Below, one piece after another: positions 7,525-41,696 of a stretch of DNA of 43,041 nucleotides. The first letter of the stretch is position 1; each line of letters opens with the position of its first letter. The notes beneath the pieces were generated by a model that saw nothing but the letters and a program-made list of their open reading frames with translations, ran no database searches and was not told the DNA's origin. The translations under genes and the position numbers were made by a program. Origin of the DNA: a phage; assembly GCA_026180655.1 (NCBI GenBank), contig GCA_026180655.1_4341.1; one strand, given 5' to 3'.

Positions 7525-7630
7525 TCTTTAATCCTTTGGTTAAGAGGTTACTGGTTAAAGGAGATGCGCCAGACGGGAACCACCCGCTTTTCGTGTGCGA
7601 CACTAGGCGCAAAATTATTCTAACACACTA

Positions 7631-7665
7631 CTTGCACACCCCAATATAATAGCGTACTATTCACT
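7631..7665 (+). promoter_or_regulatory. Conserved promoter-like element, class A copy 1 (CTTGCACACCCC-AATATAATAG-CGTA-CTATTCA)
   Basis: TATAAT at 7645-7650 overlapping palindrome AATAG-N4-CTATT (7648-7661); near-identical copies at 16310, 27219 (rc) and 28441 (rc); gene start 27 nt downstream. Confidence 0.45.
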
Positions 7666-7691
7666 TACACCAACAATGAAGGGGTTTTAAA

Positions 7692-7883
7692 ATGTCCAGT
7701 TTACCAATTTCCTTAATCCTGTTTGCACTGCTCGTGTACTTTGCGCCTTTTTTAGTTGCCTACTTCCGCAACCATAAAGCAAAGCTGGCGATATTCATGG
7801 CTAACTTATTTCTCGGATGGGTTCTGTTGCCGTGGGTATTCATTTTAATCTGGGCTTGCAACTCGAACGTGAAAGAGAAGTAA
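7692..7883 (+). CDS. Small two-TM membrane protein, superinfection-immunity (Imm)-like
   Basis: 63 aa, two hydrophobic helices, motif FRNHKAKLAIFMANLFLGWVLLPWVFILIWA recalled as typical of Imm-type superinfection immunity proteins; GAAGGGG RBS; opposite strand to flanking tail genes. Confidence 0.45.
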   Translation: MSSLPISLILFALLVYFAPFLVAYFRNHKAKLAIFMANLFLGWVLLPWVFILIWACNSNVKEK

Positions 7884-7921
7884 GCTACTATAAGACAAAT
7901 CCTAAACACGAGGAAGTAAGC

Positions 7922-9052
7922 ATGGCCCGGAAGAAAATAACCGACGAGCAGTTACAGGAAGAATTGAACGCCGGAACAAAGATTATCGACATATCCCGTA
8001 AATACGGCATCTCAGACCGCGTAATTCGTATCCGTAAAGCGAAGCTAGCTAAAAAAGGTGTAGGCCACGGGCGCGACGTTAGCCACCTTGTCCCGGACGG
8101 CTACAAGATTAAAGGAACGTCGTCACTGGTGGACGAGTTCGGCAACACTAAACTGCAATGGGTTAAGACCGACACCGACGCCGAACGCCAGGTAGAGTTG
8201 ATGAAAGCCGTAATCGAGGGCATGAAGTCAGAGATTACGCCAGTTGCGCCTGTTAAAGCCACCCGCACCAAACGTGACGATAAACTACTCAATCTTTACA
8301 CGGTATCTGATTTACATCTCGGTATGCTGGCCTGGGCCGACGAGAGCGGCGACGACTGGGATATGAAGATTGCGGAAGACCTGTTTTCTCGATGGTTCGA
8401 CGCAGCGTTTCAGAAAGCACCGGATGCAGGAACAGGAGTCATTAACCTGCTAGGCGACTTCGCACACTTCGATAGTCTTGATGCCGTTACCCCTGAGTCG
8501 CGTCATGTGTTGGACGCAGACACGCGCTATCAGAAACTTGTACGCTACATGATTCGTATGGTCCGCCGTGTTGTAGATATGGCGCTGGTTAAACATAAAA
8601 CCGTTCGCTTGCTTATTGTGCAAGGGAACCACGACGAAAGCGGAATGATTTGGTTGGCTGAGATGTTCAGTACGCTGTATGATAACGAGCCGCGTGTGTT
8701 CGTCGATACGTCGCCGGACGTTTACAAGATGGTACGGCACGGCAAAACGACGCTGTTCTTCCATCACGGGCATAAAGCACGATTCGACGCTATCGAACCG
8801 GTTATGATTGCCAAGTTCCGCAAAGCGTTTGGTGAGAGCGTTTACAGCTACGCCCACGTAGGCCACCTGCACCATCAGAAGATTGTAGAAAGCCGTAATA
8901 TGATTGTTGAGCAACACCGCACCTTAGCGGCGAAAGACGCCTACGCCTCTCGCGGTGGATGGATGTCGGGCCGGAGTGCAAATGTAATTACTTATAGCGC
9001 CGAATATGGTGAGGTCGCACGTTTAACTATTTCACCGGAGATGCTGGGATGA
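7922..9052 (+). CDS. Calcineurin-like metallophosphoesterase with N-terminal HTH domain
   Basis: Motifs D-x-H (VSDLHLG), GD-x-x-D (LGDFAHFD), GNH[DE] (QGNHDE), HHGH and GHLHH; N-terminal 60 aa HTH-like (IIDISRKYGISDRVIRIRKAKL); GAGGAAG RBS before ATG 7922. Confidence 0.65.
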   Translation: MARKKITDEQLQEELNAGTKIIDISRKYGISDRVIRIRKAKLAKKGVGHGRDVSHLVPDGYKIKGTSSLVDEFGNTKLQWVKTDTDAERQVELMKAVIEGMKSEITPVAPVKATRTKRDDKLLNLYTVSDLHLGMLAWADESGDDWDMKIAEDLFSRWFDAAFQKAPDAGTGVINLLGDFAHFDSLDAVTPESRHVLDADTRYQKLVRYMIRMVRRVVDMALVKHKTVRLLIVQGNHDESGMIWLAEMFSTLYDNEPRVFVDTSPDVYKMVRHGKTTLFFHHGHKARFDAIEPVMIAKFRKAFGESVYSYAHVGHLHHQKIVESRNMIVEQHRTLAAKDAYASRGGWMSGRSANVITYSAEYGEVARLTISPEMLG

Positions 9053-9279
9053 CTTCAAAATACAACCGCACAATGACAAATACTCACGGCAGCACAATGG
9101 CAGTAGATGTTTATGATGTGCTCCGCGCCTTTGATATACGCGACCCAGCACTACAGCACGCATTGAAGAAGCTATTGTGCATGGGGTTGCGCGGGCACAA
9201 AGATACAGGAACCGACTTAGCGGAAGCAATTGAAAGTCTGGAGAAGTTACGGGAGTATCGAAGCAATATTGACGAGTAA
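9049..9279 (+). CDS. Hypothetical protein (76 aa), translationally coupled to the phosphoesterase gene
   Basis: ATGA start/stop overlap with 7922..9052; followed by a terminator. Confidence 0.35.
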   Translation: MTSKYNRTMTNTHGSTMAVDVYDVLRAFDIRDPALQHALKKLLCMGLRGHKDTGTDLAEAIESLEKLREYRSNIDE

Positions 9280-9280
9280 G

Positions 9281-9310
9281 AAAAAAGGCCCCGAAAGGGG
9301 CCTTAGTTTT
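9281..9310. terminator. Bidirectional rho-independent terminator
   Basis: AAGGCCCC-GAAA-GGGGCCTT hairpin flanked by A-run on one side and T-run on the other; sits between convergent genes. Confidence 0.6.
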
Positions 9311-15990: not shown

Positions 15991-16309
15991 GTTTCTCCTT
16001 TCTCGATAAGTAAAGCCCCGCCTTAAAGCGGGGCGCTAGTCCTTATCATTTAAACACAGAAACGGCGTAATCTCAGTAAACCAGTTACTTTTTACACAAG
16101 CAATAGAGTATGGCCCTTCCTAACGCGTCAGCGTAACTACACTCATGACTTACGTCCCGCTCCGTTACCTGCCCGCGCCGCGGTCGCTTGTTCATACTTC
16201 ACAAGCTCAGGTGGAGCTTAGCATATTTTCAGTGAAAAGTCAACTATTCGAATAGTTTATTCCAACATTTACAATTTAGTGGAATAACTGGAATACATAA
16301 CCAAATAGT

Positions 16310-16345
16310 TTGCGCACCCCAATATAATAGGGTACTATTCAGTTA
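16310..16345 (+). promoter_or_regulatory. Conserved promoter-like element, class A copy 2 (TTGCGCACCCC-AATATAATAG-GGTA-CTATTCA)
   Basis: TATAAT 16323-16328; palindrome AATAG-N4-CTATT at 16326-16339; gene start 28 nt downstream. Confidence 0.45.
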
Positions 16346-16372
16346 TTGAAACGAGAGATAAGGAACTTAAAG

Positions 16373-16585
16373 ATGAAAGAATTAATTATCGCGGTATTGA
16401 TGACATTGGCAGTTTCACTGGTAATCGCTGCTGTGGTACGTAGCTTAGATAAACACGGGTGCGAGAACTACGGAGATATCACAGGCCGAGAGGTAATGTA
16501 TAGTTACACAACTTGTTATGTAAAAACTGATAGGGGGTTTATCCCCCGTGAAGAACTTAATTTTAGAGCAGCGACACATGAATAA
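16373..16585 (+). CDS. Small membrane-anchored protein (moron), unknown function
   Basis: ATG 16373 with AAGGA RBS; N-terminal TM helix (LIIAVLMTLAVSLVIAAVV), 4 Cys in extracytoplasmic part; own promoter-like element and terminator; opposite strand to capsid module. Confidence 0.4.
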   Translation: MKELIIAVLMTLAVSLVIAAVVRSLDKHGCENYGDITGREVMYSYTTCYVKTDRGFIPREELNFRAATHE

Positions 16586-16587
16586 AA

Positions 16588-16613
16588 CTAAGGCCCCGTA
16601 AGGGGCCTTTTAT
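16588..16613. terminator. Bidirectional rho-independent terminator
   Basis: AAGGCCCC-GTAA-GGGGCCTT hairpin with flanking T/A runs. Confidence 0.55.
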
Positions 16614-26864: not shown

Positions 26865-27059
26865 CTACTCTGATGCCCGAAAGTGATAGGCAACTCTTCC
26901 CCCCCCCGACATCCCGAACTCAGTATCTGTTGGTTTATCCCGCCACCCCTGAATAAAACCGAAACGGTCACGGGTTATATACCGGTAGTTGTTAGGGAGT
27001 GGCAACTCCAGCCCCTCAAAATCAACGGTCACGGTGTAGCTTCTAAAATTCATAGTCAA
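26865..27059 (-). CDS. Hypothetical protein whose frame is joined to a second ORF by a G9 tract
   Basis: ATG at 27053; GGG codons span the homopolymer; downstream ORF 26780..26971 is in the frame reached by a 1-nt length change. Confidence 0.3.
   Translation of the reverse strand: MTMNFRSYTVTVDFEGLELPLPNNYRYITRDRFGFIQGWRDKPTDTEFGMSGGGRVAYHFRASE
26899..26907. repeat. Homopolymeric C9/G9 tract
   Basis: ttCCCCCCCCCgac on plus strand; lies inside overlapping ORFs 26865..27059 and 26780..26971. Confidence 0.9.
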
Positions 27060-27192
27060 TTACCCCGAACTCGTTAATGATTTGAGCCTTGTAGAAGTTG
27101 CCGTTTGAGGCCAGGTGATACGCCTGCACCATAGTCATCTCGCGATAGGTTGCTGCACTGTTTTCGAATTCCATAATCATCAAAGTAACCAT
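27043..27192 (-). CDS. Small hypothetical protein (49 aa)
   Basis: ATG 27192, 27 nt downstream of class A element copy 3; below ORF-track cutoff. Confidence 0.25.
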   Translation of the reverse strand: MVTLMIMEFENSAATYREMTMVQAYHLASNGNFYKAQIINEFGVIDYEF

Positions 27193-27218
27193 CTTCCGTC
27201 TCTCCTCTCGTCTGTGTA

Positions 27219-27254
27219 AATGAATAGTATCCTATTCTATCCCAGCGTGCAAGT
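27219..27254 (-). promoter_or_regulatory. Conserved promoter-like element, class A copy 3 (minus orientation)
   Basis: Reverse complement reads CTTGCACGCTGGGATAGAATAGGATACTATTCA; palindrome AATAG-TATC-CTATT at 27223-27236. Confidence 0.4.
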
Positions 27255-28440: not shown

Positions 28441-28478
28441 TAAGTGAATAGTATCCTATTATGTTGGGGTGTGCAAGA
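28441..28478 (-). promoter_or_regulatory. Conserved promoter-like element, class A copy 4 (minus orientation)
   Basis: Reverse complement reads CTTGCACACCCCAACATAATAGGATACTATTCAC; palindrome AATAG-TATC-CTATT at 28447-28460. Confidence 0.45.
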
Positions 28479-41668: not shown

Positions 41669-41696
41669 AAAGGCCCCGTTTGGGGCCTTAGTTTTA
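41669..41696. terminator. Bidirectional rho-independent terminator between convergent operons
   Basis: AGGCCCC-GTTT-GGGGCCT hairpin with flanking A- and T-runs. Confidence 0.6.

What the first reader, a model, noticed from the sequence alone, without database searches (positions are those of the whole stretch)
7631..9310. Opposite-strand moron island: Imm-like membrane protein + HTH-metallophosphoesterase + small coupled ORF
Between the tail chaperone and major tail genes (both minus strand) sits a self-contained plus-strand unit with its own promoter-like element (7631-7665) and bidirectional terminator (9281-9310). It encodes a 63-aa two-TM protein with an Imm-type superinfection-immunity motif, a 376-aa calcineurin-like metallophosphoesterase with all five metal-binding motifs fused to an N-terminal HTH, and a 76-aa ORF overlapping by ATGA. 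A DNA-binding phosphoesterase paired with a superinfection-immunity-like membrane protein looks like a candidate superinfection-exclusion or host-modulation module rather than a virion component.
Basis: partly seen in the sequence, partly recalled or inferred. Interest (0 to 1): 0.6.

Follow-up and report, generated by a model that had tools for sequence, protein, structure and literature searches.

The report
Immunity gene plus nuclease-like operon in tail genes
A small, separately transcribed three-gene unit sits backwards inside the tail genes of this Kagunavirus-type phage; it is real but already annotated in hundreds of related phages, and its immunity gene and its DNA-binding phosphoesterase are independent passengers rather than a joint exclusion device.

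Summary
The window is a whole Kagunavirus-like (Guernseyvirinae) phage genome, and the island is about 90% identical in DNA to annotated relatives such as Bas74 and the K1ind phages.

The island's layout is a conserved promoter, variable slot A, an HTH-metallophosphoesterase (MPE), variable slot B and a bidirectional terminator.
- **Slot A** here holds a T4-Imm-family two-TM protein. In relatives it is replaced exactly by secreted signal-peptide proteins.
- **Slot B** here holds a 76-aa protein of unknown function. In relatives it is replaced by a PNKP-type HAD phosphatase plus a dNMP-kinase-like gene.
- **The slots assort independently.** All four combinations of the two slots occur, so Imm and the esterase are not a functional pair.

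The esterase belongs to a very large, uncharacterised phage family (phrog_704). It occurs full length in 2,038 phage records from several families, usually among replication, repair or nucleotide-metabolism genes. Its closest folds are PolD-DP1, Mre11 and SbcD.

The promoter is one of four near-identical copies in the genome. Two of the others drive the leftward, early-looking small-gene operons.

The joint "exclusion module" reading is not supported. This is an ordinary, already-annotated feature of modest interest.

The parts
7632..7667 (+). Island promoter block. Candidate -35 is TTGCAC (7632-7637), then a 17-nt spacer, and candidate -10 is TACTAT (7655-7660). The palindrome AATAG-N4-CTATT (7648-7661) overlaps the -10.
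   Evidence: A 36-nt block recurs at 16310(+), 28476(-) and 27252(-) with 3, 3 and 9 mismatches, each about 25 nt upstream of an RBS and ATG. It is conserved in Bas74, K-01 and, more loosely, Jerseyvirus Ent1. In relatives, homology runs through this block and breaks just after it. The palindrome gives 12 hits against 1.07 expected.
7692..7883 (+). Slot A cargo: a 63-aa two-TM Imm-family (superinfection immunity) protein.
   Evidence: PF14373 at 49.5 bits against GA 27.9, and phrog_1039 at E=7e-23. Hydropathy shows two TM segments, and GC is 42.7%. It is 39% identical to T-even-type Imm. It is replaced exactly between about 7665 and 7885 in L025, L030 and L036.
7922..9052 (+). Constant gene: a 376-aa HTH-metallophosphoesterase (phrog_704). 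The HTH spans about aa 5-45, a beta-hairpin plus helix spans aa 61-102, and the MPE core spans aa 119-376.
9049..9279 (+). Slot B cargo: a 76-aa protein of unknown function whose start overlaps the esterase stop (ATGA).
9285..9304 (.). Bidirectional intrinsic terminator shared by the island (+) and the major tail gene (-).
   Evidence: It belongs to a family of similar terminators at 16590-16609 and 41670-41689 (D1/D4).
7525..7631 (-). Conserved intergenic leader of the tail-chaperone/TMP operon. A candidate extended -10, TGTTAGAAT, lies on the minus strand at 7617-7625.
   Evidence: Strong Kagunavirus-Jerseyvirus conservation. The promoter reading is by inspection only. The predicted RNA fold is not better than shuffles (z=-0.6).
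16310..16609 (+). Sister cassette with the same promoter block (16310-16345), a 70-aa N-terminal-TM protein (16373-16585) and a bidirectional terminator (16590-16609). It also lies antisense inside the late operon.
   Evidence: GC is 40.8%. phrog_26710, function unknown. No tblastn hit in the part of Bas74 fetched here (loci L001 and L007, which together cover the Bas74 genome).
28441..28476 (-). Near-identical copy of the island promoter. It drives the leftward small-ORF operon at the divergent control region.
   Evidence: 3 mismatches of 36.
27217..27252 (-). More diverged copy of the island promoter block, upstream of the next leftward small ORF (27043-27192).
   Evidence: 9 mismatches of 36, same TTGCAC-N17-TACTAT-TCAnTTA layout.

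Best explanation
The region is a conserved, separately transcribed operon that the Jerseyvirus/Kagunavirus lineage carries antisense between its major tail and tail-chaperone genes. Its layout is promoter, slot A, HTH-metallophosphoesterase, slot B, bidirectional terminator.

**Shown**
- The promoter belongs to a four-copy family. Two other copies head the leftward small-gene operons at the divergent control region. Like the promoters inside the replication cluster, it carries an AATAG-N4-CTATT palindrome.
- The two slots are exchanged precisely and independently among close relatives.
- The esterase is the constant element. It belongs to a huge phage family that elsewhere sits in replication, repair or nucleotide-metabolism modules.

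**Inferred**
- (a) The unit is transcribed by host sigma-70 RNA polymerase with the non-structural genes, not with the tail genes.
- (b) Imm inserts in the inner membrane and, like T4 Imm, blocks DNA entry of superinfecting phages.
- (c) The HTH tethers a two-metal phosphodiesterase of the Mre11/SbcD/PolD-DP1 type to DNA. There it trims or cleaves DNA ends for phage recombination or repair, or breaks down host DNA to feed nucleotide salvage. It may act together with the PNKP-type 3'-phosphatase, kinase and ligase genes that repeatedly sit next to it.
- (d) The 76-aa protein is an exchangeable accessory, possibly a partner of the esterase because it is translationally coupled. Its activity is unknown.
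For: - **Anatomy:**
- **Promoter family and palindrome:**
- **Conservation and exact break-points of the slots:**
- **Independent assortment in 30 loci:**
- **Identity of alternative cargo:** HAD_PNKP at E=8.7e-20, phrog_139 dNMP kinase and phrog_14165 signal-peptide protein.
- **Imm homology:**
- **Spread of the esterase family:** 2,038 phage records and 4,614 clusters at 50% identity.
- **Contexts of the esterase:**
  - After helicase, VRR-NUC and Dam and before the lysis genes in Drexlerviridae.
  - Exonuclease, endonuclease, MPE, HAD-PNKP, kinase, ligase in Erwinia phage S2.
  - dCMP deaminase, MazG, ThyX, MPE in DSS3phi2.
  - Before the lysis and terminase genes in a Luteibacter prophage.
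- **Fold and motifs:** (GDFLH aligned to the Thermotoga Mre11 GDLLH).
- **HTH:**
- **Expression:** a published Kagunavirus time course places the Imm gene in the same temporal class as the DNA polymerase and methylases. The capsid and tail genes fall in a different class (PMC12645636). The data are of low resolution.
Against: - No member of the esterase family has been characterised. None was found in the searchable literature, and none has a solved structure detectable by sequence.
- Fold comparison does not separate nucleases from other MPEs cleanly. Foldseek ranks the cyclic-nucleotide phosphodiesterase Rv0805 level with Mre11 and DP1.
- No Rad50/SbcC partner is annotated in the ~90% identical genome.
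- The promoter is a weak consensus match (7 of 12), and the consensus scan did not call it.
- Timing is inferred from promoter similarity and one weak transcriptome study.
- Adjacency to the PNKP phosphatase is recurrent but not universal.
Confidence: 0.6

Rival explanations
1. The three genes act together as a superinfection-exclusion or host-modulation module: Imm blocks entry, and the HTH-esterase destroys or silences incoming DNA.
For: The genes are co-transcribed from one promoter. The esterase is nuclease-like and DNA-binding. Slot A always carries envelope-targeted proteins.
Against: The slots assort independently. The esterase occurs without Imm in most of its 2,038 phage records, within replication or nucleotide modules. 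Its GC equals the genome average. There are no PADLOC matches.
Confidence: 0.1
2. The esterase is a small-molecule or signalling phosphodiesterase. It would degrade cyclic (oligo)nucleotide alarm signals, and so act as an anti-defence factor rather than a nuclease.
For: Foldseek's best hit is the cyclic-nucleotide phosphodiesterase Rv0805, E=2.1e-8. The MPE superfamily includes many such enzymes.
Confidence: 0.1
3. The HTH-esterase is chiefly a transcription regulator. It would bind the AATAG-N4-CTATT palindromes in the phage promoters, including its own.
For: It has an HTH. Mre11-type MPEs are known to dimerise (established knowledge), which would suit a palindromic site. The palindrome lies in the island promoter and at least 7 others. 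Some database records call homologues 'transcriptional regulator'.
Against: Serratia phage Tsm2 lacks the esterase entirely yet still shows the palindrome enriched, 4 hits against 0.43 expected. All catalytic residues are invariant in 63 homologues, so an enzymatic activity is under selection. The family is present in unrelated phage families that were not examined for the palindrome.
Confidence: 0.05
4. The esterase takes part in genome-end processing or packaging, acting as an HTH-guided nuclease alongside terminase.
For: In Dhillonvirus it forms its own unit directly upstream of the terminase genes. In a Luteibacter prophage and in Drexlerviridae it lies at the boundary between early genes and the lysis/packaging genes.
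Against: In this phage and in the T7-like and N4-like phages it is far from terminase. Tsm2 packages without it.
Confidence: 0.07

Closest known systems
T4 Imm (Pfam PF14373, Imm_superinfect)
   Same: A small inner-membrane protein with two hydrophobic segments. It scores above the Pfam gathering cut-off and is 39% identical over 51 aa to the Imm of a T-even-type phage, encoded next to gp43.
   Different: It is shorter (63 against 80 aa). It sits in a siphovirus, in an exchangeable slot inside the tail genes. No exclusion phenotype has been tested for any Guernseyvirinae copy.
Mre11/SbcD and PolD DP1 nucleases (calcineurin-like metallophosphoesterases)
PHROG 704, 'DNA repair exonuclease'; also annotated as metallophosphoesterase or calcineurin-like phosphoesterase in Bas74, the K1ind phages, Jersey, Drexlerviridae and Dhillonvirus
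   Same: Full-length match at E=5e-164. Proteins 96-99% identical are already public.
   Different: Nothing material. The family name is a prediction, not a tested function.
Phage morons (lambda-type promoter-gene-terminator insertions in late operons)
   Same: Its own promoter and terminator, opposite orientation inside the late operon, low GC, and variable presence of the Imm gene and of the sister cassette at 16310-16609.
   Different: The central esterase gene is not variable within Jerseyvirus/Kagunavirus and has genome-average GC. The promoter is one of the phage's own promoter family rather than an imported one.
T4 Pnkp / bacterial Pnkp-type end-healing systems (kinase + phosphatase, with or without ligase)
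   Same: In relatives the esterase is directly followed by a PF25109 HAD_PNKP phosphatase and a P-loop kinase, and in Erwinia phage S2 also by a DNA ligase.
   Different: Those genes are absent from this window. The functional link to the esterase rests on gene order only.

Membership tests
Pfam PF14373 Imm_superinfect (T4 Imm family) | Profile score above the curated gathering threshold | tested here: met
   49.5 bits against 27.9, E=3.9e-13, covering profile positions 1-42 of 42.
Pfam PF14373 Imm_superinfect (T4 Imm family) | Small membrane protein with two hydrophobic helices | tested here: met
   Kyte-Doolittle peaks at residues about 4-24 and 32-55.
Pfam PF14373 Imm_superinfect (T4 Imm family) | Pairwise homology to a T-even Imm | tested here: met
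   39% identity over 51 aa, E=1e-12, to VR20 Imm, which lies next to gp43 with uvsX two genes further on.
Pfam PF14373 Imm_superinfect (T4 Imm family) | Blocks DNA entry of superinfecting phage | not testable with these tools
   Needs expression and phage challenge.
Calcineurin-like metallophosphoesterase superfamily | Five metal-binding motifs (DxH, GDxx[DH], GNH[DE], H, GHxH) | tested here: met
   D130/H132, G178/D179/H182, G235/N236/H237, H282 and G314/H315/H317 are invariant or nearly so in 63 homologues of 31-49% identity.
Calcineurin-like metallophosphoesterase superfamily | Pfam Metallophos / Metallophos_2 gathering score | tested here: not met
   20.3 against 21.5 bits, and 21.8 against 27 bits. 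At E<=0.01, 15 and 11 of the 63 homologues match the two families.
Calcineurin-like metallophosphoesterase superfamily | Beta-sandwich MPE fold | tested here: met
Mre11/SbcD nuclease family | Closest structural and sequence relatives are Mre11/SbcD | tested here: inconclusive
Mre11/SbcD nuclease family | Rad50/SbcC ATPase partner encoded alongside | tested here: not met
   No such gene appears in the annotation of the ~90% identical Bas74 genome, nor next to the esterase in any context examined.
Mre11/SbcD nuclease family | Mn-dependent exo/endonuclease activity | not testable with these tools
   Needs biochemistry.
PHROG 704 | Full-length profile match | tested here: met
   E=5.1e-164, residues 4-375 on profile positions 2-389 of 390.
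Moron (autonomous accessory cassette in a late operon) | Own promoter and terminator, transcribed independently of the surrounding operon | tested here: met
   Repeated promoter block and bidirectional terminator, in opposite orientation. Transcription itself was not measured.
Moron (autonomous accessory cassette in a late operon) | Present in some close relatives and absent from or replaced in others | tested here: met
   Met for Imm (18 of 30 loci) and the 76-aa ORF (15 of 30 loci). The esterase is present in all 30 loci, but those loci were retrieved by esterase homology, so that count is not an independent test. Independent signs that it is near-universal are the similar record counts for the island and the major tail protein. 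It is missing only in Tsm2.
Moron (autonomous accessory cassette in a late operon) | Atypical base composition | tested here: met
   Imm has 42.7% GC against 50.9% for the genome. The esterase has 51.2%, so the criterion is not met for that gene.
Known anti-phage defence proteins (PADLOC-DB v2) | Match to any defence-system profile | tested here: not met
   No family at E<=0.1 for any of the three island proteins.

The most novel reading that the evidence does not exclude
The HTH-metallophosphoesterase family is present in about 4% of sequenced phage genomes, has no Pfam family of its own, no solved structure and no characterised member found. It may be a stand-alone, Rad50-independent, DNA-tethered Mre11-like nuclease. 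With the PNKP-type 3'-phosphatase, P-loop kinase and ligase genes that repeatedly flank it, it could form a phage end-healing and end-sealing pathway. Such a pathway would repair damage from host nuclease defences or process phage DNA ends. The translationally coupled 76-aa protein could be an exchangeable specificity or regulatory subunit.
Probability: 0.15. Interest if true: 0.55.

Novelty: already known. Interest (0 to 1): 0.25.

Why it matters
As found, it matters little. The same three genes in the same place are already deposited and annotated in over 400 phage genomes, and proteins 96-99% identical are public.

Two points have some practical value.
- The unit shows how Jerseyvirus and Kagunavirus phages, which are widely used in therapy and engineering work, keep two exchangeable cargo slots under one of the phage's own non-late promoters inside the tail operon. 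That makes the site a natural place for payload insertion, and a place where superinfection-exclusion genes turn over.
- The constant gene belongs to one of the larger phage enzyme families that still lacks any experimental function. A simple biochemical and genetic study would annotate thousands of genes at once.

Tried and rejected
- **Esterase as binder of the promoter palindrome.** Rejected because Tsm2 lacks the esterase but keeps the palindrome.
- **Structured RNA in the conserved 7525-7630 leader.** The fold is no better than shuffles and there are no Rfam hits in the whole window.
- **CRISPRi-ART fitness data for phage PTXU04.** I hoped it was a Kagunavirus. Its description does not fit one: 92 CDS, a 2,198-aa polyvalent protein and "limited relation to known proteins". 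I found no usable information for this island there, although I did not compare its sequence.
- **Consensus promoter scan.** Its only nearby plus-strand hit (7664-7693) would start transcription inside the Imm ORF. The repeat-based evidence was used instead.
- **The search for related loci with the 63-sequence alignment.** It failed for lack of a conserved stretch and was repeated with a 6-sequence alignment.
- **Literature searches.** No characterised family member was found.
- **Kagunavirus transcriptome paper.** The sampling is multi-cycle and coarse, so only the co-classification of genes was used.
Full report
**What the window is.** The 1.9-kb region matches 452 phage records at the DNA level. 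The best matches are about 90% identical and are Escherichia Kagunavirus phages (JSSK01, Bas74, K1ind-type). Several hundred Salmonella Jerseyvirus records follow. Bas74's annotation gives the same order and orientation: tail assembly chaperone (-), superinfection immunity protein (+), DNA repair exonuclease (+), hypothetical protein (+), then a tail gene (-) labelled 'minor tail protein' in Bas74. I take this last gene to be the major tail (tube) protein, as annotated in Ent1. The window is therefore a complete Guernseyvirinae genome, and the finding is a feature already present and annotated in public records.

**Checking the observation.** The three ORFs lie at 7692-7883, 7922-9052 and 9049-9279, with an ATGA overlap between the last two.
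- The 63-aa protein passes the Pfam Imm_superinfect cut-off (49.5 against 27.9 bits). It has two hydrophobic segments. It is 39% identical to the Imm of a T-even-type phage encoded next to gp43.
- The 376-aa protein misses the Pfam Metallophos cut-offs narrowly but matches phrog_704 over its full length (E=5e-164).
- In an alignment with 62 homologues of 31-49% identity, all five metallophosphoesterase motifs are invariant or nearly so.
- AlphaFold gives a confident model (pLDDT 91.5) with an N-terminal three-helix domain, a beta-hairpin plus helix, and an MPE core.
- The HTH is supported by a weak profile match to GerE (E=0.017). Sigma70_r4, GerE, Fis-type and LysR-type HTH families also match homologues (best E=1.5e-9).
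- The terminator at 9285-9304 is a strong hairpin with T-runs in both directions.

**The promoter.**
- The element at 7632-7667 is a poor consensus match and was not called by the scan.
- However, the 36-nt block TTGCACACCCCAATATAATAGCGTACTATTCACTTA recurs at 16310 (+), 28476 (-) and 27252 (-) with 3, 3 and 9 mismatches. Each copy lies about 25 nt upstream of a Shine-Dalgarno sequence and an ATG.
- The two minus-strand copies head the leftward operons of small ORFs at the divergent control region near 28.4-28.9 kb.
- The block contains the palindrome AATAG-N4-CTATT, which occurs 12 times (allowing one mismatch) against 1.07 expected.
- The same palindrome also sits in the spacer of three near-consensus TTGACA-N17-TATAGT promoters inside the rightward replication cluster.
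- A genome paper on a close relative noticed the same motif and called it a phage-RNA-polymerase promoter (PMC9825357). No RNA polymerase gene is annotated in the ~90% identical Bas74 genome. I therefore read the motif as an operator inside host-type promoters.
- The island thus appears wired into the phage's own non-structural promoter set. One coarse Kagunavirus transcriptome places the Imm gene in the same temporal class as the DNA polymerase and methylases, and in a different class from the capsid and tail genes (PMC12645636). This is consistent but weak.

**Anatomy across relatives.** I fetched 80 viral-contig loci encoding esterase homologues and mapped reference proteins onto them. Thirty are Guernseyvirinae loci flanked by the chaperone and (except the truncated L037) the major tail gene.
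- Upstream of the esterase they carry Imm (18), a 108-aa signal-peptide protein of phrog_14165 (8), or something else (4).
- Downstream they carry the 76-aa ORF (15, sometimes with an HNH endonuclease or a Rha/ANT-type protein), a HAD_PNKP phosphatase plus a dNMP-kinase-like P-loop protein (12), or nothing detected (3, one of them a truncated contig).
- Imm+small, Imm+HAD, sp108+small and sp108+HAD all occur.
- DNA alignments put the break-points just after the promoter block (about 7665), just before the esterase RBS (about 7885), at the esterase stop (9052), and just before the terminator (about 9275).
- The unit is therefore promoter, slot A, esterase, slot B, terminator, with the esterase as the constant element.
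- Imm has 42.7% GC against a genome value of 50.9%, while the esterase has 51.2%.
- Serratia phage Tsm2, in the same subfamily, has only a distant phrog_14165-like gene in this slot. It has no Imm, esterase or 76-aa ORF anywhere in its genome.
- A more distant Vibrio relative of the tail module has no opposite-strand insert at all.
- Record counts suggest the island is nearly universal in Jerseyvirus and Kagunavirus. About 495 records have a major tail protein at 60% identity or more, and 452 have the island DNA.

**The esterase outside this subfamily.** Full-length homologues, including the HTH, occur in 2,038 of 50,697 phage records. They form 4,614 clusters at 50% identity in the large protein library, and some lie in bacterial chromosomes, where the one locus examined is a prophage.
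- *Drexlerviridae:* it follows helicase, VRR-NUC and Dam and precedes the lysis genes. In Webervirus it is followed directly by the HAD-PNKP phosphatase and a dNMP kinase.
- *Erwinia phage S2 (T7-like):* the order is 5'-3' exonuclease, endonuclease, esterase, HAD-PNKP, P-loop kinase, DNA ligase.
- *DSS3phi2 (N4-like):* it follows dCMP deaminase, MazG and ThyX.
- *Dhillonvirus:* it forms its own promoter-to-terminator unit upstream of terminase, with an unrelated small coupled ORF and no Imm.
- *Environmental phages:* a DUF6378-like protein (27.0 bits against a cut-off of 27.1) lies within about 1 kb upstream in 11 loci.
- HNH homing endonucleases have inserted beside it in several lineages.

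This pattern is that of a long-resident DNA or nucleotide-metabolism enzyme. It is not the pattern of an exclusion gene.

**What the esterase probably does.**
- The family profile aligns its motif II, GDFLH, to GDLLH of Thermotoga Mre11.
- Foldseek puts the cyclic-nucleotide phosphodiesterase Rv0805 level with Mre11 and DP1. The fold alone therefore does not settle the substrate.
- The fused HTH, the Mre11-like motif II and the neighbouring genes together favour a DNA-tethered two-metal nuclease working on DNA ends. Its role would be recombination or repair, or host DNA breakdown for salvage.
- There is no Rad50/SbcC partner, so it is not a classical Mre11/SbcD system.
- None of the island proteins matches a PADLOC defence profile.
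- No characterised member was found in the literature available here.

**The 76-aa protein.**
- It matches phrog_2452 and, notably, only the C-terminal ends of several ~250-position PHROG profiles.
- In Acinetobacter phage Abp9 and in Nonagvirus SE1Kor, the homologous segment is the C-terminal ~60 aa of 251-255-aa proteins. In SE1Kor that protein lies inside the 7-deazaguanine gene cluster.
- Its model is a beta-hairpin plus three helices, with no informative structural neighbour.
- Its function remains unknown. The start-stop overlap with the esterase gene suggests co-production, nothing more.

**Verdict.**
- It is wrong in treating the esterase and Imm as a functional pair.
- The feature is already annotated in hundreds of genomes, so its novelty is low.
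- The residual interest lies in the uncharacterised esterase family and in the tidy two-slot cassette design.

Noticed in passing
window 16310-16609: A second plus-strand mini-cassette lies inside the minus-strand head/lysis genes. It has a 92%-identical copy of the island promoter, a 70-aa protein with an N-terminal TM or signal segment (GC 40.8%, phrog_26710, function unknown), and its own bidirectional terminator. The protein has no tblastn hit in the fetched Bas74 loci, so the cargo appears variable.
   Followed up: partly
window 7648, 16326, 27223, 28447, 31873, 31917, 34581, 38436 (plus 1-mismatch sites): The palindrome AATAG-N4-CTATT is embedded in the spacer or -10 region of two classes of promoter: TTGCAC-N17-TACTAT and TTGACA-N17-TATAGT. 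There are 12 hits against 1.07 expected. It is probably the operator of an unidentified phage regulator. It is also enriched in Tsm2, which lacks the esterase. A related perfect 16-bp palindrome, AACTATTCGAATAGTT, lies at 16242-16257.
   Followed up: partly
window 7525-7631: The intergenic stretch upstream of the tail chaperone gene is more conserved between Kagunavirus and Jerseyvirus than many coding regions. It holds a candidate minus-strand extended -10 (TGTTAGAAT, 7617-7625), needed to restart tail-gene transcription after the terminator at 9285-9304. The predicted RNA fold is not significant.
   Followed up: partly
window 7536-7649: The counterpart of this 37-aa TTG-start ORF is annotated as a hypothetical protein in Bas74 and K-01. 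It overlaps the conserved leader and the -35 of the island promoter. It is probably not a gene.
   Followed up: no
L095 1123-1890 (Acinetobacter phage Abp9); L096 1925-2680 (Salmonella phage SE1Kor): The 76-aa island protein corresponds to a C-terminal ~60-aa module of ~250-aa phage proteins with differing N-terminal parts. In the Nonagvirus it lies between QueE and the QueC-amidotransferase gene of the 7-deazaguanine DNA-modification cluster.
   Followed up: partly
L003 4171-4671, L013 4741-5250, L026, L030 and L076 (next to the esterase gene): HNH homing endonuclease genes have inserted immediately beside the esterase gene in several unrelated phage lineages. This fits the esterase being a widely conserved homing target.
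   Followed up: no
L098 (NZ_JACVEL010000023.1, Taishania pollutisoli assembly): A 13-kb contig in a Bacteroidota genome assembly carries a complete Jerseyvirus-type island: chaperone, Imm, esterase, HNH, small ORF, ANT and major tail protein, with the small ORF, HNH and ANT-type genes 86-98% identical to Salmonella phage Ent1 or the window. This is probably phage contamination of the assembly.
   Followed up: no
L004 3800-3900 (Dhillonvirus WFI): An unannotated 26-aa hydrophobic ORF (MTRNDIYVLAIWSAAAFIGMVICELL) lies between a good sigma-70-like promoter and the esterase gene. It hints that a small membrane peptide upstream of the esterase may recur outside Guernseyvirinae.
   Followed up: no
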